DNA from: Candidatus Bathyarchaeia archaeon
GTDB lineage: Archaea; Thermoproteota; Bathyarchaeia; Bathyarchaeales; Bathycorpusculaceae
Direction: 5' to 3'
Assembly: GCA_050012255.1 (NCBI GenBank)
Contig: JBEKHN010000018.1
Location: 1 to 38,974, forward strand
DNA: 38,974 bases
The translations under genes and the position numbers were made by a program. Shown piece by piece: positions 27,722 to 32,601 of the stretch (its first letter is position 1; each line of letters begins with the position of its first letter). The notes beneath the pieces were generated by a model that did no database searches, was not told the DNA's origin, and worked only from the letters and a program-made list of their open reading frames with translations.

Positions 27722-28741
27722 ATTGACAGCTGGATTCCTGAAGACGGAGACACTTTCACAACCAAAGCAAGATTCATATTCAACGTTTTCGGATATGAGC
27801 ATCCAGCTGATCGAGTCTTTGCCTTCTTGAAATACATTCCAGCCAAGTACAAGAAACTCTTCAACATCGCATATCTGGACAACACTTGGAACTACGGAAG
27901 GCAGAAAGTTTTCCGAGCAGAGAGGCTCTACACTGCCCAAAACTATCAGAGTTTCCTCGAGAGTTTTAGACACAATTTTCCCAGCCACGTGTATTTTTGC
28001 CCTTACATGGGCAAAGAGGTTATCACGGCCCCCTTGAACTCTGTGAAAGACATCTATGTTCCAAAAGAGTGTCTGCACCGCTTGGCAAAGCTTCAGACCA
28101 GGGACAGTCTGCAAAACGCTGCGTTGGACCTTATCAAGCTGCTGTCAACCGAATCACAAATCGACACTGAAGACTTCGGAATCCACGGTTCAATTGCTTT
28201 GAACATGCACACGCCAAAGTCGGACGTAGACTTAGTAGTCTATGGAGCACAAAACTTTCGCAAACTCGAGGCAACAATAAAAAAACTTGTCGAAGCAGGG
28301 ACGCTCACGTACATGTCCAAGAATCGTATAGACGCAGCGAGACAATGCAAGGGAAAATACCAAGGTAAAACATTCATGTACAACGCAGTCCGAAAGCCTG
28401 AGGAAGTCAATTCAAAATACGGGATAGCTAAGTATCATCCCACTGCCCCTGTCAGGTTCTGCTGCACGGTAAAAGACGATTCTGAAGCGATGTTTCGCCC
28501 AGCCATTTACAAAATTGAAAATTACGTTCCAGCGGACAGAGAGTCAACCCTCAGCGAGAACAAAGTGCCCAACCAAGTGGTCTCAATGATCGGGTGTTAC
28601 CGGAATGTTGCTCGGCGAGCCGACAGGATCCGAGTTTCCGGAATGCTGGAGCGTGTTGAAAACGTCGAAACAGGACAGGTTTCTCATCAAGTAGTGGTCG
28701 GTACAGGCACAAGTGAGGAAGAGCACATTTGGCCGCTCTGA
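27722..28741 (+). CDS. Pol-beta-fold nucleotidyltransferase paralog 1 (COG1665-like); true start upstream of the first canonical start
   Basis: GIHGS-x10-DVDLVVYG. In-frame [25 protein letters not shown] upstream of TTG 27827 matches the N-termini of both paralogs. Confidence 0.8.
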
Positions 28742-29799
28742 AACTCCGTGACCGTGACGCGATTATCACAGAAGAAGGATTGATCTTCCGCGTTTTCGGC
28801 TACTCGCATCCTTCAAAGTCCTATGTTTGCGATGTCGAATACGCGCCTTCTAACATCTTCAAGTCCGACAATCCCAAAGCCTTCAGAAACGAGGGTCAAA
28901 ACGTATTCTATAAGTTCTACGAGGATGAAGGCTGGAAGTTCGTTGAAAGCAAGTACACACGATACATGATTTTCCATGAAATGCTGCGACAAAACGTAGT
29001 CGGAGTTAGCGACAACGGTGTACTTGAAATTAGAAGACCGGAAGCAATTCTTCAAGAATGTATCGGAACACTACCGAAGGATGAACTTCTTACAGCATTG
29101 CAAAGTGTACTCGATACTGTGACAGAGTCTGCAGGTTTGCGCTTCCAGGACTTCGGGGTTTTCGGTTCTTTGCTGCATGGCTTTTATCATCCGAAGTTCT
29201 CTGACATTGACCTAATCGTTTACGGCAGAAGGAACGTTGCCAAGCTCTGTGAAACACTCAAAGAACTTTATGAAGCTGATTCTTCACCGCTCAAAAACGA
29301 GTTCGAAACCGAACAATCAATCGAAGGCAAGAATTGGCGGTTTCGGAACTTTAGTCTCGAAGAATACTTGTGGCATCAGAGAAGAAAGCTGATCTATGCC
29401 CTGTTTGACGACGCACGAAGTGGCAGGAAAATAAAGACAGAGTTTGAGCCTGTGAAAGACTGGAAAGAGATTAACAACGAATATAGCCCCAAGACAAGAA
29501 TTCTGCGAAGAGGTTGGACCAAGATTCTGGCCACGGTCACCGATGCCAGTCAGGCCCCATTCATTCCCTCGATCTATGACATTGAACCACAACAGGTTCT
29601 TGAAGGACCAAGGGAAGTTACCGAGGTAAGACGAATTGTCTCTTACATGGAGGAATTTCGAATGCAAGCAAGAGACGGAGAAACCGCGTATGTCGAAGGA
29701 AACCTTGAGGAAGTGACAACTCCGAAGAGCAGTTTCTATCAAATAGCGTTAACCTATTGTGAAAGATACTATGAGCAGGTTCTGAAAGTGAAGAATTGA
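28729..29799 (+). CDS. Pol-beta-fold nucleotidyltransferase paralog 2 (COG1665-like)
   Basis: [28 protein letters not shown]...[10 protein letters not shown]-terminal OB-like G-x-LE-x-V. Confidence 0.85.
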
Positions 29800-29803
29800 A
29801 TTG

Positions 29804-30841
29804 CTACGCCAACACCATATAGTCCGACGGCTTGTTCCCAATCAACAGTCTAAAGTATTCTTGATCTCGTTTTGAATCTGTGACGCGCTCGACTTTTCCC
29901 TGGGCAATAACGGTCTCGCCGCTTGCGGCTTGTTCGCAGAATCTTCCCCGGAAGGAAGCAATCTCCGTTATTGGGGAGAGCTTTGGTCCTTCCATGACGT
30001 TTGCGCCTTTAATAGTGTACCTGCACGGGGTAAGAATCGATTCAGAATCGTCTACGACTGTTGCTTTGATCTTTGCATAACCACTATTCTTGTACTGTGT
30101 GTCACCATATTTTTCATCAATCTCGTCCCAGTTCTTCACGAAGCGGATGAAGTAATCAGTTTTCGTGGACTTTCCCTGAAAGGCTTTTCTCGATTCGGTT
30201 CGAACGAACTCTTCAAAATCTATGGCCGTGTCCTTCGAACGGAAGTCGAACAGGCTTCTCAGTTCATGTTGGCTATAGGGCTTAAGGGGCGAATGTGGGT
30301 CATTAACGATTTCTTGCAGGCTTGAATGGACTCGCCGACAATTTGCGGAACCGTACACGATCGGATCGATGTCAGAACCAATCTTGTGGAGTCCGGCCAA
30401 GATGGATCCAGAAATCCCGATTGTGCTCCACGGAATGTTCGAGTTTCGTTTGAGTAATTCGGTTAACTGTAATGCCTTGTTTTCCACTGCGTCCAGAGTC
30501 TTAGAACTTCTCAGTTGCTGCAGCTTTTTCACGGGGTCAAAATGCTTTTTGACCTTGTTGAATGGCACTTCGCACAGAGTTTCATCAAATACAGGGTCAT
30601 GGACAAGGTACGTGGGGAACTTCTCTCTCAACAGCGAGTAGCGTTCCGAAAAGGAATAGACCTTGCGATAGGTTAACGCATTTCTCTTTCTGTCGCCGTT
30701 TTCATTGGGGTAATAGCGGATGAAGGCAACTATTCGACCATGAGGGTGGACGAGGCCTTTTACATCAAAAATCAAGCCTTCTGAAGTTTCTACCAAATCA
30801 CCTTCGCGAGCCTTCACATCCAGCATCCACCATGACTGCAA
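29804..30841 (-). CDS. Pol-beta-fold nucleotidyltransferase paralog 3 (COG1665-like)
   Basis: REGDLVETSEGLIFDVKGLVHP; GISGS...SDIDPIVYG; RGRFCEQA...GKVERV. Confidence 0.85.
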   Translation of the reverse strand: MQSWWMLDVKAREGDLVETSEGLIFDVKGLVHPHGRIVAFIRYYPNENGDRKRNALTYRKVYSFSERYSLLREKFPTYLVHDPVFDETLCEVPFNKVKKHFDPVKKLQQLRSSKTLDAVENKALQLTELLKRNSNIPWSTIGISGSILAGLHKIGSDIDPIVYGSANCRRVHSSLQEIVNDPHSPLKPYSQHELRSLFDFRSKDTAIDFEEFVRTESRKAFQGKSTKTDYFIRFVKNWDEIDEKYGDTQYKNSGYAKIKATVVDDSESILTPCRYTIKGANVMEGPKLSPITEIASFRGRFCEQAASGETVIAQGKVERVTDSKRDQEYFRLLIGNKPSDYMVLA

Positions 30842-30860: not shown

Positions 30861-31556
30861 TTATTTTATAAGCTCAGAGAATCCGGCTCTTCTCAACCCG
30901 TAGTACACTGGAACGGCAATGACTGTTGTCAATGCCAAAGCAACCACTCTTTCCACTGGGTAGATTGGCATTGCAGCGAACCATATTTCAGGCGTCAGAG
31001 CCGGTGAAAAATACCAAATGGCCAACGCGCTGCCTGCCATGTGATCAGTTAAAATAGCAACAAATGCGGCGACGGTAATACCAAGCAATGGTCTCTCGGC
31101 ATCAGACGAGTGGAAAGAGGATCCTGCCACATAAGCAAGAGGTGAGAAGGCCACTATCATAGCGAAAATGTGCAACCACGTGTACGCAAAAGCCTCCCTG
31201 CCAGAAGGGTTAGCATAGAAGACCAAGAGAGAAAGGAGGATAATTGATCCAGCTATATAACCTCTTTTCATCTTTATGAACCCAGCAGCAACCGCAGCAA
31301 GAGTGGGAGGGATCACCGTAAGGATCCCAAAGAGAGCCCCACCGGGATTAATGAACACCCCTACGGTAGAGCCTATCAGAACCGCTAACCCGCCGAAGAA
31401 TGGTCCAAACAGGATGCCGATTAGGGGTCCACCTATCACACCAAATGTTATCTGACCAGAAGCGCCTATTGTAATTGAAAAGGGGAGCAGGCTGAGAAGT
31501 GCTTGCAAGGCTGCAAAAACGGAGACTAGCGCAATTTTCGTAGCTGATAATCTCAT
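30861..31556 (-). CDS. ECF transporter S-component-like membrane protein
   Basis: IAL-x-x-VFAAL, GILFGP-x-x-G and YPVER motifs; 6-7 TM helices. Start moved to ATG 31556. Confidence 0.7.
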   Translation of the reverse strand: MRLSATKIALVSVFAALQALLSLLPFSITIGASGQITFGVIGGPLIGILFGPFFGGLAVLIGSTVGVFINPGGALFGILTVIPPTLAAVAAGFIKMKRGYIAGSIILLSLLVFYANPSGREAFAYTWLHIFAMIVAFSPLAYVAGSSFHSSDAERPLLGITVAAFVAILTDHMAGSALAIWYFSPALTPEIWFAAMPIYPVERVVALALTTVIAVPVYYGLRRAGFSELIK

Positions 31557-31656
31557 AGCAGGACACCTTGTGTAGATTCGTAACTGGCTGTGTAAAAAAC
31601 TACACAACGTTAATAAAACTTTCCAAGACTATGACTTAGAAGACGGTGCAGTCCAG

Positions 31657-32601
31657 TTGAGCTCACTCACCAAATCGAAGCATGCCTCGCACTGCTTGGA
31701 GCTTGCCATACTTCTAGAGGCGAGCGCTCATAAGCCTGGAAATGTGAGCGTTGTGACCAACTTTGAAAAAACTCGATATGAGCATTTTCTTGCTTCTGCC
31801 GTTGCTGCGTCTACTTCTTTCGAATCTGCAGCTGAGAGAGGAATTGCTGTTTCTGAAGACAGAATTGATCCGTCCGACGTTGGAGTGGGCCAGTTCATAA
31901 AGAGATGTATGGCTGACATCAACGCTTGGCAACACGGAGGTAACACGTTGCTGGGCACCGTGATTCTGCTCTCCCCGATGGCCGTCGCTGCTGGCATGAC
32001 CATGTCGAGAGAGCGTTTTGACGTGCCCGCTTTAAGAAAGAACTTGAAGCTGGTTGTGGAGTCAACAACCGCCAAGGACGCCGCTGACGTTTATGAGGCT
32101 ATTAAGATCGCTAACCCCAGCGGACTTGGGAAGGCTCCTGACCTGGACATCAACGACCCCACCGCGACTAAAAGAATAATAGAGCAGAAAATAACCCTGT
32201 ATGAAGTTTTCAAGATAGCTGAGAAATACGACACGATCTGTTCCGAGTGGACAAGAAACTATCCAGTGACGTTTGATCTTGCCTACCCCTCTTTGATCAA
32301 CAGGTTGCGAGACAGCCCTGATCCAGGTTTGGCCATAGTTCAAACCTTCTTGCAGGTGCTTGCTGAAGTTCCAGACACTTTCATAGCCAGAAAGACGAGC
32401 ATAGAGAAAGCGCGTCAGATTTCGCTGAAAGCCAGAGAGGTCATAGAGCTCGGTGGAGTTGAAACATCCAATGGGAGAAAGAGCTTAAACAAGCTTGACA
32501 GGGAACTCAAGAAATCCAGCAATCTCTTGAATCCAGGCACCACTGCTGACATCATAGGAGCTGCACTGGCGCTATGCATTCTTGCCGGATACAGGCCTTA
32601 G
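31657..32601 (+). CDS. citG: CitG/MdcB-family triphosphoribosyl transferase (methanopterin-linked type)
   Basis: LEASAHKPGNV, NTLLG, PDTFIARK and NPGTTAD motifs. Confidence 0.88.
   Translation: MSSLTKSKHASHCLELAILLEASAHKPGNVSVVTNFEKTRYEHFLASAVAASTSFESAAERGIAVSEDRIDPSDVGVGQFIKRCMADINAWQHGGNTLLGTVILLSPMAVAAGMTMSRERFDVPALRKNLKLVVESTTAKDAADVYEAIKIANPSGLGKAPDLDINDPTATKRIIEQKITLYEVFKIAEKYDTICSEWTRNYPVTFDLAYPSLINRLRDSPDPGLAIVQTFLQVLAEVPDTFIARKTSIEKARQISLKAREVIELGGVETSNGRKSLNKLDRELKKSSNLLNPGTTADIIGAALALCILAGYRP

What the first reader, a model, noticed from the sequence alone, without database searches (positions are those of the whole stretch)
27722..32601. CitG plus three Pol-beta nucleotidyltransferases beside fwd-mch: candidate methanopterin side-chain module
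Seen: three divergent paralogs, all keeping G-S-x10-11-D-x-D, clustered with citG directly upstream of fwdDBAC-mch, with no citrate lyase or malonate decarboxylase genes in the window. Known: CitG/MdcB attach a triphosphoribosyl group from ATP to an acceptor, and their partners CitX/MdcG are nucleotidyltransferase-type enzymes that transfer the phosphoribosyl product with PPi release. Methanopterin ends in ribose-5-phosphate esterified to 2-hydroxyglutarate, a step whose enzyme is to my knowledge unassigned. Inference: CitG triphosphoribosylates the pterin-ribitol and these enzymes form the terminal phosphodiester. Three paralogs suggest a heteromer or an extended, lineage-specific C1 carrier.
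Basis: partly seen in the sequence, partly recalled or inferred. Interest (0 to 1): 0.8.

Follow-up and report, generated by a model that had tools for sequence, protein, structure and literature searches.

The report
Candidate methanopterin tail-building enzymes
Three related, uncharacterised nucleotidyltransferases and a CitG-like enzyme in this archaeal genome belong to a gene set that travels with methanopterin genes across two archaeal phyla, making them good candidates for the long-missing enzymes that build the charged tail of this one-carbon carrier.

Summary
Three real paralogues (25-29% identical, all with G-S-x10/11-D-x-D) lie beside a CitG-like gene just upstream of fwdDBAC-mch. 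The genome has no citrate-lyase or malonate-decarboxylase carrier protein.

The link to methanopterin-type cofactors is strongly supported.
- In 301 Thermoproteota genomes, 136 of the 139 that hold the NTase family also hold Mch or a strong RFAP synthase hit, and 129 of 139 hold CitG.
- In 81 Asgard genomes, 52 of 55 NTase holders also hold CitG.
- NTase pairs sit inside methanopterin biosynthesis operons (RFAP synthase-DUF1464-MptH-MptA-NTase-NTase in Helarchaeota and Jordarchaeia).
- One protein fuses HPPK (FolK) to an NTase.
- Sulfolobus acidocaldarius has a CitG-NTase-DUF1464 operon.

The proposed chemistry is inferred, not shown: CitG adds a triphosphoribosyl group and the NTase forms the phosphodiester to 2-hydroxyglutarate. 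The NTases are not CitX/MdcG relatives by sequence. Their presence in classical methanogens could not be tested.

This genome lacks the early pathway genes, which hints at salvage followed by re-tailing. Verdict: partly supported, interesting and testable.

The parts
27143..27610 (-). 155-aa winged-helix protein; a likely regulator of the module
   Evidence: Only weak HTH hits in Pfam/NCBIfam. It is homologous (36% over 126 aa, E 6e-19) to the N-terminal HTH part of the PfkB-HTH proteins found beside NTases elsewhere. A homologue lies next to CitG in 5 of 80 named loci.
27710..28741 (+). NTase1 (clade B3): Pol-beta nucleotidyltransferase with N-terminal beta domain and C-terminal OB fold. The start is uncertain (ATC 27710 or ATT 27722; the first canonical start, TTG 27827, would cut off the conserved N-terminus)
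   Evidence: PF01909 1.8e-5; clade assignment; orthologues begin just before the W-I-P-R-D-G-D stretch; related strains show no indel here.
28729..29799 (+). NTase2 (clade B2); overlaps the end of NTase1 by 13 bases
   Evidence: PF01909 2.1e-5. AF2 model pLDDT 96.4 with beta domain 1-110, NTase core 113-245 and OB fold 257-356. B2 lies next to B3 in 14 of 19 cases.
29804..30841 (-). NTase3 (clade B1), the paralogue class that most often lies next to CitG
   Evidence: In the fetched loci B1 lies next to CitG 18 times and next to clade A 42 times, out of 61 B1 genes.
30861..31607 (-). ECF-transporter S-component-like membrane protein, weakly folate-family (FolT-like)
   Evidence: PF07155 9.1e-6, 26.2 bits against a cut-off of 26.7. 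TIGR04518 ECF_S_folT_fam 7.9e-7, 29 bits against a cut-off of 60. Best PDB sequence match is FolT 4z7f, E 0.001. AF2 model pLDDT 89.1. The top 16 listed Foldseek rows are all ECF S components (BioY, RibU, PanT, ThiT, FolT; best E 0.015). Homologues lie within 10 kb of NTase/CitG in 14 of 80 named loci.
31657..32601 (+). CitG-like protein (ATP-dependent triphosphoribosyl transferase family), not the citrate-lyase or malonate-decarboxylase equivalog
   Evidence: PF01874 2.1e-69. NCBIfam CitG/MdcB equivalogs score 34-45 bits against cut-offs of 272-477. 29% identity over 100 aa to E. coli CitG. PDB 3h9p 'putative triphosphoribosyl-dephospho-CoA synthase', E 1.2e-14. Single copy in the genome.
32762..38157 (+). 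fwdD-fwdB-fwdA-fwdC-mch (context: users of methanofuran and H4MPT)
26594..27130 (-). MobB (context; molybdopterin-guanine dinucleotide adaptor, presumably for Fwd)
   Evidence: PF03205 1.5e-25 and TIGR00176 1.5e-28.

Best explanation
The cluster is a late-stage 'tailing' module for a methanopterin-type (RFAP-derived) pterin cofactor. Proposed mechanism, all steps inferred. (1) The CitG-like enzyme uses ATP to transfer a 5-triphospho-alpha-D-ribosyl group onto the terminal hydroxyl of the pterin-aminophenyl-ribitol core and releases adenine. This matches the chemistry of CitG/MdcB on dephospho-CoA and would explain the alpha-glycosidic link in methanopterin. (2) The product is in effect an NTP analogue. 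A Pol-beta-type NTase, working as a pair of paralogues (A+B1 in most lineages; B1 and B3+B2 here), lets a hydroxyl acceptor attack the alpha-phosphate and releases PPi. The acceptor would be (S)-2-hydroxyglutarate in true methanopterin, perhaps another head group in other lineages. This forms the terminal phosphodiester. (3) RimK/MptN-type ligases, often next to the NTases, extend the tail. In this genome the early genes are missing and a FolT-like ECF S component sits inside the cluster, so the module may act on an imported, untailed core. What is shown: the genes, their paralogy, their fold, and their phyletic and positional linkage to methanopterin genes. What is inferred: substrates, order of steps, pairing and salvage.
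For: Co-occurrence in 301 Thermoproteota genomes (tabulated):
- NTase against CitG: 129 both, 10 NTase only, 12 CitG only, 150 neither.
- NTase against (Mch or RFAP synthase at E<1e-15): 136 / 3 / 16 / 146. Two of the three exceptions are 76-77% complete and the third is in 300 contigs.
- Patchy cases agree. G280 is the only one of 10 genomes in family f29 with NTase, CitG and Mch. In f25, genera g45 and g69 have NTase, CitG and RFAP synthase, while g107 has none.

Independent phylum, 81 Asgard genomes: NTase/Mch 49/6/7/19 and NTase/CitG 52/3/13/13.

Gene order:
- Bathyarchaeia L020/L057/L058: NTase-NTase-CitG-DUF447-MptE-DmrX-like-DUF1464-(PTPS)-RFAP synthase-MptH.
- Helarchaeota L110: RFAPs-DUF1464-MptH-MptA-NTase-NTase on one strand.
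- Jordarchaeia L098: the same order plus DmrX-like, with CitG 5.5 kb away.
- L081 and L095 are similar.
- Of 80 named loci, 58 hold at least one H4MPT-linked gene in the flank: CitG 27, Ftr 26, FwdA 16, RimK 14, Mch 11.

Other support:
- Sulfolobus acidocaldarius (NTase 100% identical to P0271) has metallophosphoesterase-CitG-NTase-DUF1464 on one strand. It has RFAP synthase and no Mch (controls). S. solfataricus SHMT uses the modified folate sulfopterin (PMC3697235, passages read).
- P0158 is an HPPK (PF01288, 3e-40)-NTase fusion.
- In the control genomes CitG, RFAP synthase and DUF447 ring in the same four archaea (M. jannaschii, H. volcanii, S. acidocaldarius, M. acetivorans), while CitD and MdcC ring only in E. 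coli.
- In Methylomonas DH-1, mch, an alpha-L-glutamate ligase and a CitG-like gene are consecutive (gene table in PMC11533326).
- The family keeps the NTP-binding GS and metal-binding DxD invariant in all 137 sequences.
- RimK next to NTases fits a position just before MptN, which adds glutamate to the hydroxyglutarate (PMC8141765, passages read).
Against: - No biochemical data exist; every substrate is inferred.
- The NTases show no detectable relation to CitX or MdcG beyond the superfamily.
- The C-terminal domain is an OB fold like SSB/RPA/MCM, and the core's nearest solved folds are RNA-tailing enzymes (Trf4 Z 7.7, TUT1 7.3, CutA 7.2). This would suit an RNA substrate.
- CitG occurs without the NTase family in 12 of 141 Thermoproteota and 13 of 65 Asgard CitG holders. 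Five Mch holders in Thermoproteota and seven in Asgard lack the NTase. Some other enzyme must finish the tail there.
- No Euryarchaeota appear among the 80 best named loci, and no Pfam or NCBIfam family covers these proteins. This hints that classical methanogens, the only organisms where the hydroxyglutarate tail is chemically established, may lack the family.
- One reaction does not obviously need two or three catalytically intact paralogues.
- Some NTase copies lie next to methanofuran genes (MfnB, AA-kinase, hydantoinase-like), so context alone does not separate the two cofactors.
Confidence: 0.5

Rival explanations
1. The NTases do belong to methanopterin-type (or methanofuran) cofactor metabolism but catalyse a different step. 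Examples: adenylylating the ribose-5-phosphate intermediate (an ADP-ribose-like activated form) before a second enzyme adds the head group; attaching a lineage-specific head group other than hydroxyglutarate; or acting on methanofuran.
For: All the pathway-level linkage evidence fits this equally well. Conserved pairs of catalytically intact paralogues (A+B1 adjacent 42 times, B3+B2 14 times) suggest two activities or two specificities. B3+B2 and some A copies lie beside MfnB, AA-kinase (MfnE-like) and hydantoinase-like genes. DUF1464, often adjacent, rings only in S. acidocaldarius among the controls, which suggests TACK/Asgard-specific chemistry. From recall, not from a call: White's extract work described the hydroxyglutarate condensation as ATP-dependent, starting from the monophosphate.
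Against: The family is present in lineages without Fwd or Mch (Sulfolobaceae 10 of 10, f20 11 of 11), which argues against a methanofuran role for clades A and B1. The most frequent immediate non-NTase neighbour of B1 is CitG (18 of 61), as expected if it takes CitG's product.
Confidence: 0.3
2. The NTases are RNA- or tRNA-directed nucleotidyltransferases (tailing or modification enzymes) whose linkage to C1 genes is incidental or regulatory.
For: OB-fold C-terminal domain similar to SSB/RPA/editosome OB folds. NTase core closest to Trf4, TUT1, CutA, GLD-2 and MenT1 (Z 7.0-7.7). TiaS appears weakly (Foldseek rank 44, E 0.033). 9 of 137 members weakly hit the poly(A) polymerase palm family PF22600.
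Against: The Z scores lie in the range the tool calls common for unrelated arrangements, and no full-length analogue exists. The phyletic pattern follows Mch/RFAP synthase/CitG rather than any translation component. The genes sit inside biosynthetic operons in two phyla. There is an HPPK fusion. No tRNA or RNA-processing gene recurs next to them in the loci annotated; Nop5/fibrillarin is seen in the Promethearchaeota locus, and ORFs of matching sizes lie at the same place in the Hodarchaeota locus, which was not scanned.
Confidence: 0.07
3. The module serves the molybdopterin/tungstopterin dinucleotide cofactor of formylmethanofuran dehydrogenase. MobB lies 13 bases from the winged-helix gene, which in turn lies just upstream of NTase1.
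For: MobB is adjacent in the window and appears near CitG in L075 and L023. FdhD is next to CitG in L021.
Against: MobB is within the flank in only 1 of 80 named loci. The family is present in Fwd-less lineages. The recurrent neighbours are RFAP synthase, MptH, MptE, DUF447 and Ftr. The fusion partner is HPPK, which belongs to the 6-hydroxymethylpterin branch and not to Moco.
Confidence: 0.03
4. Classical role: CitG makes the 2'-(5''-triphosphoribosyl)-3'-dephospho-CoA prosthetic-group precursor and an NTase loads it on an acyl carrier protein.
For: Pfam CitG domain at 2.1e-69.
Against: No CitD or MdcC ACP and no CitC/E/F/X in the genome. Scores are far below the CitG/MdcB equivalog cut-offs. 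The four archaeal control genomes with CitG-like genes also lack CitD and MdcC.
Confidence: 0.01

Closest known systems
CitG/CitX (citrate lyase) and MdcB/MdcG (malonate decarboxylase) prosthetic-group systems
   Same: The same two-enzyme logic is proposed: a CitG-family enzyme makes a 5-triphospho-alpha-ribosyl adduct from ATP, then a nucleotidyltransferase-type enzyme joins it to a hydroxyl with loss of PPi. The CitG-like gene carries the Pfam CitG domain.
   Different: The acceptor would be a small molecule (pterin-ribitol, then 2-hydroxyglutarate), not dephospho-CoA and an ACP serine, and the genome has no ACP. The NTases are not CitX/MdcG family members and carry an extra N-terminal beta domain and a C-terminal OB fold. 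They come as conserved paralogue pairs.
Minimal Pol-beta nucleotidyltransferases (PF01909 NTP_transf_2; kanamycin NTase, MNT, MenT) and non-canonical poly(A)/(U) polymerases
   Same: hG-G/S and DxD motifs, and a core fold at Z about 7. 109 of 137 members hit PF01909.
   Different: Three-domain architecture of about 340 aa with no full-length structural analogue. No PAP-associated or HEPN partner. Genomic linkage is to cofactor genes.
Known methanopterin biosynthesis enzymes (MptA, MptE, MptG/RFAP synthase, MptH, MptN, DmrX)
   Same: Same operons and the same phyletic pattern.
   Different: None of the known enzymes is a Pol-beta NTase or a CitG homologue. From recall, the steps after MptH (ribofuranosyl reduction, dephosphorylation, ribosyl-phosphate addition, hydroxyglutarate addition) have no assigned enzymes. 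My full-text searches found no paper linking methanopterin with CitG/triphosphoribosyl function or with a nucleotidyltransferase.
CofC/CofD (F420 phospholactyl transfer)
   Same: Another archaeal cofactor whose phosphodiester to a 2-hydroxy acid is built through a nucleotide-activated intermediate (recalled knowledge).
   Different: CofC is a MobA-like, not a Pol-beta, NTase. In that system the hydroxy acid is the activated partner, whereas here the ribosyl side is proposed to carry the leaving group.
FolT-type ECF S components with FolC-type retention by tailing
   Same: The membrane protein has the ECF S-component fold, and its weak sequence matches are to folate S components. Import followed by an anionic tail is the folate-salvage logic.
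   Different: Scores are below the curated cut-offs and the substrate is unknown. The link to loss of the de novo pathway is only weakly supported.

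Membership tests
Pol-beta nucleotidyltransferase superfamily | hG[GS] motif followed by [DE]x[DE] on the next strand | tested here: met
   All three window proteins. G143, G146, S147, D159 and D161 are invariant in 137 sequences.
Pol-beta nucleotidyltransferase superfamily | Alpha/beta core fold of the palm domain | tested here: met
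   AF2 model pLDDT 96.4. Residues 113-245 align to Trf4, TUT1, TdT, CutA, MenT1 and Pol X at Z 6.8-7.7, rmsd 2.6-3.8 over 84-100 residues. PF01909 hits 109 of 137 members.
Pol-beta nucleotidyltransferase superfamily | Third catalytic carboxylate on a later strand | not tested
   No invariant acidic residue lies in the core after DxD. The only other invariant acid is E327, in the OB domain.
CitX / MdcG holo-ACP synthases | Sequence membership (PF03802 CitX, MdcG families) | tested here: not met
   No such Pfam hit for the window proteins at E<=0.01 or for any of 137 members. hhalign of the family profile against E. coli CitX gives probability 1%.
CitX / MdcG holo-ACP synthases | An apo-ACP acceptor (CitD or MdcC) encoded in the genome | tested here: not met
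   TIGR01608 and TIGR03130 find nothing in the 98.5%-complete genome. tblastn with E. coli CitD finds nothing.
CitG / MdcB triphosphoribosyl-dephospho-CoA synthase | Pfam CitG domain over full length | tested here: met
   PF01874 2.1e-69, residues 12-306 against profile positions 2-283 of 284.
CitG / MdcB triphosphoribosyl-dephospho-CoA synthase | Score above the NCBIfam equivalog cut-offs (same function) | tested here: not met
   34-45 bits against cut-offs of 272-477, and only the C-terminal third aligns. 29% identity over 100 aa to E. coli CitG.
CitG / MdcB triphosphoribosyl-dephospho-CoA synthase | ATP-dependent triphosphoribosyl transfer with adenine release | not testable with these tools
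   Needs an enzyme assay.
ECF transporter S component (folate family) | Six-helix S-component fold | tested here: met
   AF2 pLDDT 89.1. The top 16 listed Foldseek PDB rows are all S components, probability 0.95-1.00, best E 0.015, TM up to 0.72 on RibU 5kbw.
ECF transporter S component (folate family) | Curated family score (PF07155 / TIGR04518) | tested here: inconclusive
   PF07155 26.2 bits against 26.7; TIGR04518 29 bits against 60. FolT 4z7f E 0.001 by phmmer.
ECF transporter S component (folate family) | An EcfT energising module in the genome | tested here: met
   One PF02361 (CbiQ/EcfT) gene at G000:C7:51047-51664, E 1e-35. Whether it serves this S component is unknown.
Methanopterin biosynthesis gene set (operational: genes co-distributed and co-located with RFAP synthase/MptH/Mch) | Phyletic co-occurrence with pathway markers | tested here: met
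   136 of 139 NTase-holding Thermoproteota genomes also hold Mch or a strong RFAP synthase hit. 49 of 55 in Asgard hold Mch.
Methanopterin biosynthesis gene set (operational: genes co-distributed and co-located with RFAP synthase/MptH/Mch) | Conserved position in biosynthetic operons in distant lineages | tested here: met
   Bathyarchaeia, Helarchaeota, Jordarchaeia and Sulfolobaceae loci.
Methanopterin biosynthesis gene set (operational: genes co-distributed and co-located with RFAP synthase/MptH/Mch) | Presence in classical methanogens with chemically defined methanopterin | not testable with these tools
   There is no family accession to run against the named control genomes, and no Euryarchaeota genome handle could be obtained. 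None appears among the 80 best named loci.

The most novel reading that the evidence does not exclude
The window encodes a salvage-and-retailing system. A FolT-like ECF S component imports an untailed methanopterin core made by neighbours. The CitG-like enzyme and the NTases then rebuild the anionic ribosyl-phosphate-hydroxyglutarate tail inside the cell, which traps and activates the cofactor. On this reading many Bathyarchaeia and some Asgard archaea that run the H4MPT Wood-Ljungdahl branch are methanopterin-core auxotrophs. Basis: this 98.5%-complete genome lacks RFAP synthase, MptH, MptA, MptE, DUF447, DUF1464 and PTPS by tblastn and by profile search, yet keeps CitG, three NTases, a DmrX-like reductase, Ftr, RimK, Mch and Fwd. 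RFAP synthase and DUF447 are lost together in three relatives of 95-100% completeness that keep NTases, CitG and Mch. Of genomes with the S-component gene beside the module, 15 of 16 lack RFAP synthase, against 18 of 28 without it (Fisher p 0.036; kin are not independent and the completeness of the named genomes is unknown).
Probability: 0.3. Interest if true: 0.85.

Novelty: new variant of a known kind. Interest (0 to 1): 0.72.

Why it matters
Methanopterin is the one-carbon carrier of methanogenesis, anaerobic methane oxidation and the archaeal Wood-Ljungdahl pathway. From recalled knowledge, the enzymes for the last steps of its side chain (alpha-ribosyl-phosphate and hydroxyglutarate addition) have been unassigned since the pathway was outlined in cell extracts in the 1990s. 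My six literature searches found nothing that assigns them.

This finding supplies concrete candidates: a CitG homologue and a previously unnamed three-domain NTase family with about 1,400 clusters at 50% identity. It also supplies a chemically coherent mechanism. A genetically tractable test organism is available, because Sulfolobus acidocaldarius carries CitG-NTase-DUF1464 as one operon.

If the salvage reading is right, it would also mean that abundant sediment archaea depend on community-supplied cofactor cores. That would affect how their metabolic potential is read from genomes.

Tried and rejected
- Complex prediction of NTase2 with NTase1: verdict 'no answer', score 0.00. It says nothing for or against pairing.
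- Search for fused forms longer than 605 aa with NTase3: none found, which is weak evidence only.
- PDB by sequence: no hit for NTase2 alone, and only insignificant hits for the family profile.
- Foldseek PDB for the NTase model: no row at E<=0.001, and only OB-fold rows.
- The search for related loci with the 137-sequence alignment failed because there was no conserved stretch. It was repeated with an 8-sequence alignment.
- Earlier-findings search was not open.
- Sequencing runs: no RNA holder listed, so there is no expression evidence either way. One of the four runs laid gave nothing (X3).
- Papers not held: Kalyuzhnaya 2005 (PMC1151760 and its DOI), Chistoserdova 2005 (PMC1065231), White 1991 (PMC207731), Delle Fratte 1997 (PMC179697). 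What I say about orf7 of Methylobacterium, White's pathway and the structure of sulfopterin is therefore recall. Supplements were not consulted.
- MptA (PF02649) as a marker of the early pathway was dropped. It occurs in only 3 of 41 genomes of the order, whether or not RFAP synthase is present.
- The S-component/RFAP-loss association is weaker than first thought. Among named genomes only it is 1 of 13 against 10 of 28 with RFAP synthase, p 0.13.
- Euryarchaeota and methylotrophic bacteria could not be searched: no handle and no family accession.

Full report
WHAT IS THERE

The window is contig C18 of a 2.35-Mb, 98.5%-complete genome. It carries CdvA/B/C, fwdDBAC and mch, and the closest homologues of its proteins are named Bathyarchaeia. 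Between 27.1 and 32.6 kb lie, in order:
- a winged-helix gene (27143-27610, -);
- NTase1 (reading frame open from 27692; first ATG/GTG/TTG at 27827; ends 28741, +);
- NTase2 (28729-29799, +);
- NTase3 (29804-30841, -);
- a 248-aa membrane protein (30861-31607, -);
- a CitG-like gene (31657-32601, +).
These are followed by fwdD, fwdB, fwdA, fwdC and mch.

The three NTases are true paralogues: 25-29% identity, E 9e-25 to 2e-34. They carry G-S-x10/11-D-x-D. They are the only copies in the genome, and CitG is single-copy. The genome has no citrate-lyase genes by tblastn and no CitD or MdcC carrier protein.

THE NTase FAMILY

A profile of the three paralogues finds 1,402 clusters (50% identity) at E<=1e-3 and 401 at E<=1e-30 among 1.84 billion representatives. 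No Pfam or NCBIfam family describes them beyond the generic PF01909/PF18765 core. In a 137-sequence alignment G143, G146, S147, D159, D161, G324 and E327 (NTase2 numbering) are invariant.

AlphaFold2 gives a confident model (pLDDT 96.4, pTM 0.92) with three parts: a small N-terminal beta domain (1-110), a Pol-beta NTase core (113-245) and a C-terminal OB fold (257-356).
- Foldseek against the PDB finds only OB-fold proteins, at E >= 1.3e-3.
- The exhaustive aligner finds RNA-tailing NTases (Trf4 Z 7.7, TUT1 7.3, CutA 7.2), Pol X enzymes and MenT1 for the core. It finds SSB/RPA/MCM for the OB fold (Z about 7). No full-length analogue appears. These Z values are in the range the tool itself calls unremarkable.
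- The family is not CitX or MdcG. No member hits those Pfam families, and hhalign against E. coli CitX gives 1% probability.

PHYLETIC PATTERN

I searched the same 301 Thermoproteota genomes four times, with these hit counts:
- NTase profile: 139;
- Mch: 78;
- CitG: 141;
- RFAP synthase TIGR00144: 132, of which 87 are over the cut-off and 109 have E<1e-15.

Tabulated:
- NTase against CitG: 129 both, 10 NTase only, 12 CitG only, 150 neither.
- NTase against Mch: 73 / 66 / 5 / 157.
- NTase against (Mch or strong RFAP synthase): 136 / 3 / 16 / 146.

So the family does not follow Mch alone. It is also present where Mch is absent but RFAP synthase and CitG are present:
- family f27, 10 of 10, identified as Sulfolobaceae because the G102 protein is 100% identical to a Sulfolobus acidocaldarius protein;
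- f20, 11 of 11;
- f25, genera g45 and g69, identified as Ca. Terraquivivens through the shared contig.

All four genes are missing from families f12, f16 and f21 (80 genomes in all). In f18 and f23 (31 genomes) NTase, CitG and Mch are missing, and RFAP synthase gives only one weak hit in each (E about 1e-6).

Kin are not independent, so these counts overstate the statistics. The patchy cases are still telling. G280 is the only one of 10 genomes in f29 with NTase, CitG and Mch, and G184 is the only one of 13 in f13 with Mch and a strong NTase hit.

An independent phylum gives the same picture. In 81 Asgard genomes NTase/Mch is 49/6/7/19 and NTase/CitG is 52/3/13/13, with mostly 2 or 4 NTase copies per genome.

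In the 14 named control genomes CitG, RFAP synthase and DUF447 ring in the same four archaea (M. jannaschii, H. volcanii, S. acidocaldarius, M. acetivorans). CitD and MdcC ring only in E. coli. The archaeal CitG-like protein therefore cannot serve the classical prosthetic group, and it travels with the RFAP-pterin pathway.

GENE ORDER

- In Bathyarchaeia loci L020, L057 and L058 the order is NTase-NTase-CitG-DUF447-MptE-DmrX-like flavoprotein-DUF1464-(PTPS)-RFAP synthase-MptH.
- In a Helarchaeota genome (L110) RFAP synthase-DUF1464-MptH-MptA-NTase-NTase lie on one strand.
- A Jordarchaeia genome (L098) has the same order plus DmrX-like, with CitG 5.5 kb away.
- L081 and L095 are similar.
- In S. 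acidocaldarius the order is metallophosphoesterase-like-CitG-NTase-DUF1464 on one strand.
- Elsewhere an NTase follows mch directly (G130, G231, G272) or lies next to Ftr or a RimK/MptN-type ligase.

Of the 80 named loci, 58 hold at least one H4MPT-linked gene within the fetched flank: CitG 27, Ftr 26, FwdA 16, RimK 14, Mch 11, and early biosynthesis genes other than CitG in 11. The other 22 hold none, and nine of those are contigs shorter than 9 kb.

One representative, P0158 (505 aa), is an HPPK/FolK domain (PF01288, 3e-40) fused to an NTase. It is a single cluster member seen on two contigs, so it is rare.

In a methanotroph, mch, an alpha-L-glutamate ligase and a CitG-like gene are consecutive (gene table of PMC11533326).

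Taken together, I put about 0.85 on the statement that these NTases and the CitG-like gene work in methanopterin-type cofactor metabolism.

PARALOGUE STRUCTURE

A tree of 41 members and profile classification of 198 NTase genes in the fetched loci (194 counted for neighbours after two duplicate loci were left out) give four clades.
- Clade A (94 genes) and clade B1 (61) are immediate neighbours 42 times.
- B3 (20) and B2 (19) are immediate neighbours 14 times.
- B1 is next to CitG 18 times.
- A is next to Ftr 22 times, RimK 7 times and Mch 6 times.
The sampling is centred on clade A, because the locus query was a clade-A-led alignment.

Sulfolobaceae have one copy. Ca. Terraquivivens, f20 and f35 have a tandem pair. 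Many Asgard genomes and f19/f24 have two pairs. The window genome has B1 (NTase3) plus B3-B2 (NTase1-NTase2, overlapping by 13 bases) and no clade A. 'Three paralogues' is thus a lineage state of an older two-gene unit. All clades keep the catalytic motifs, so I expect active enzymes, perhaps heterodimers. This was not shown.

MECHANISM (INFERRED)

CitG and MdcB transfer the 5-triphosphoribosyl moiety of ATP to a hydroxyl, forming an alpha-glycosidic bond and releasing adenine. CitX and MdcG then let a serine hydroxyl attack the alpha-phosphate with loss of PPi. This is established knowledge of those families.

Methanopterin ends in ribitol-(alpha-1)-ribose-5-phosphate-2-hydroxyglutarate. Bacterial dephospho-H4MPT lacks the phosphate and the hydroxyglutarate, and MptN adds glutamate to the hydroxyglutarate (PMC8141765, passages read).

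A CitG-type transfer to the ribitol hydroxyl would give the right anomer and a triphosphate that is, chemically, an NTP with the base replaced. A Pol-beta NTase is exactly the enzyme type that binds such a triphosphate through GS and DxD and transfers the 'nucleotidyl' part to a hydroxyl. The frequent RimK neighbour fits the step after that.

The main alternative (about 0.3) keeps the pathway but changes the step. Options are adenylylation of a ribose-5-phosphate intermediate, a different head group in non-methanogen lineages, or, for B3/B2, a role near the methanofuran genes that sometimes flank them.

An RNA-directed role (0.07) rests only on the OB fold and on moderate fold similarity.

WHAT SPEAKS AGAINST, OR REMAINS OPEN

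- CitG occurs without the NTase family in 12 Thermoproteota and 13 Asgard genomes.
- Mch occurs without it in 5 and 7 genomes.
- None of the 80 best named loci is euryarchaeal.
- DUF1464, the NTase's frequent neighbour, rings only in S. acidocaldarius among the controls.
- I could not search methanogens or methylotrophic bacteria with the family profile. This is the most important gap: if methanogens lack the family, another enzyme adds hydroxyglutarate there.

THIS GENOME: A POSSIBLE SALVAGE MODE

By tblastn with seeds from relatives, and by profiles built from 2-12 homologues, the genome lacks RFAP synthase, MptH, MptA, MptE, DUF447, DUF1464, PTPS and Mtd. The best marginal hits are 26.5 bits for RFAP synthase and 15.3 bits for MptH. 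It keeps CitG, the three NTases, a DmrX-like protein (209 bits), two Ftr, RimK homologues, Mch and Fwd.

In family f1, 10 of 16 sampled genomes have RFAP synthase. DUF447 is present, and adjacent to RFAP synthase, in two RFAP-positive relatives. It is absent from three RFAP-negative ones that are 95-100% complete. All five keep three or four NTase matches, CitG and Mch.

The membrane protein in the cluster has the ECF S-component fold and weak folate-family sequence signals. The genome has one EcfT-type gene.

Homologues of this membrane protein lie within 10 kb of the NTase/CitG genes in 14 of 80 named loci. Thirteen of those 14 genomes were tested, and only 1 has RFAP synthase over the cut-off. 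Of 28 named NTase genomes without the membrane gene in the flank, 10 have it. Fisher p is 0.13, or 0.036 when G000, G130 and G272 are added.

This is suggestive only, for several reasons:
- kin are not independent;
- the completeness of the named genomes is not given;
- in relatives the early genes form one cluster that a single assembly gap could hide;
- an unrecognised alternative RFAP synthase is possible.
I give the salvage-and-retail reading 0.3.

DETAIL ON NTase1

The conserved N-terminus (W-I-P-E-D-G-D...) begins at about 27731, but no ATG, GTG or TTG lies in frame between the stop at 27689-27691 and 27827. Orthologues start a few residues before the W-I-P stretch.

Contigs of related strains from two other studies cover the place without indels. 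ATC at 27710 is the best in-frame candidate. A 12-codon reading frame (ATG 27688 to TGA 27724-27726, GTG in run X4) overlaps it in another frame.

NOVELTY AND VERDICT

Six full-text searches found no paper that ties methanopterin to CitG/triphosphoribosyl function or to a nucleotidyltransferase. The two papers that hold both words only list gene names. From recall, a CitG-like gene (orf7) is among the 'archaeal-like' genes needed for C1 growth in Methylobacterium. The relevant papers were not held, so the CitG link is probably not new. The NTase family's link, its architecture, its paralogue pairs and the salvage context appear to be new.

The finding is a new variant of a known kind: CitG/CitX logic applied to a small-molecule cofactor by an unrelated, three-domain NTase. 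It is worth a bench test, and a tractable organism is available.

Noticed in passing
window 27688-27830: NTase1 has no in-frame ATG/GTG/TTG before its conserved N-terminus. A 12-codon frame (ATG 27688 to TGA 27724-27726) overlaps it in another frame. Related strains in two other studies show 27722 A>G (ATT to GTT), one of them (X4) also 27688 A>G (ATG to GTG), and no indels, so this is not an assembly error. ATC 27710 is a candidate start; translational coupling is possible.
   Followed up: partly
whole genome G000 (window = C18): No detectable RFAP synthase, MptH, MptA, MptE, DUF447, DUF1464, PTPS or Mtd, although Fwd, Ftr (2 copies), Mch, DmrX-like, RimK and CitG are present. There are four ECF S-component-like paralogues (C18, C2, and two on C1).
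   Followed up: partly
P0158 (505 aa): HPPK/FolK domain (residues 8-134, 3e-40) fused to a B1-like NTase (174-502). It is a single cluster member seen on two contigs.
   Followed up: partly
L037 10599-12311, L038 10481-12091, L039 6593-8152: In Ca. Terraquivivens, f35 and f20 the tandem NTase pair lies beside a 520-570-aa protein with weak kinase-like hits (APH/Kdo/WaaY). In L037 it also has a weak N-terminal Pol-beta NTase hit. A PmbA/TldD gene follows. This is a conserved but unexplained neighbourhood.
   Followed up: no
L021, L022, L070, L078, L115, L125: A PfkB-family sugar kinase fused to an N-terminal winged helix recurs next to the ECF S-component-like gene and the NTases. The window's 155-aa HTH protein (27143-27610) matches only the HTH part.
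   Followed up: no
G240:C12:26159-27157, G231:C60:3566-4552, G206:C41:12666-13664: A second, divergent Mch-like gene that matches the Pfam model in two pieces lies next to CitG in G240 and G231.
   Followed up: no
control genomes: Haloferax volcanii rings for Mch, CitG, RFAP synthase and DUF447, the same set as the methanogens. DUF1464 rings only in Sulfolobus acidocaldarius.
   Followed up: no
order-level sample of 41 genomes: MptA-type GTP cyclohydrolase (PF02649) was found in only 3 of 41 genomes of the window's order, including genomes that have RFAP synthase. The pterin branch must start differently there, or be salvaged.
   Followed up: no
L093 4888-5637 and 7983-9038; L104 5122-5907 and 8737-9792: In Bathyarchaeum-type loci a creatininase-family gene flanks the B3-B2 NTase pair on one side and an asparagine-synthase-like (PP-loop) gene on the other; in L093 an FMN reductase and a DmrX-like gene lie just beyond the creatininase gene.
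   Followed up: no
window 23610-26452: CdvA, CdvB and CdvC cell-division genes lie in a row upstream of the module. This is ordinary for this phylum.
   Followed up: no
L102 (3-kb contig labelled Deltaproteobacteria): NTase-NTase-Ftr on a short contig binned with a 4.9-Mb bacterial MAG that has no CitG. This is probably a binning error rather than a bacterial member.
   Followed up: partly
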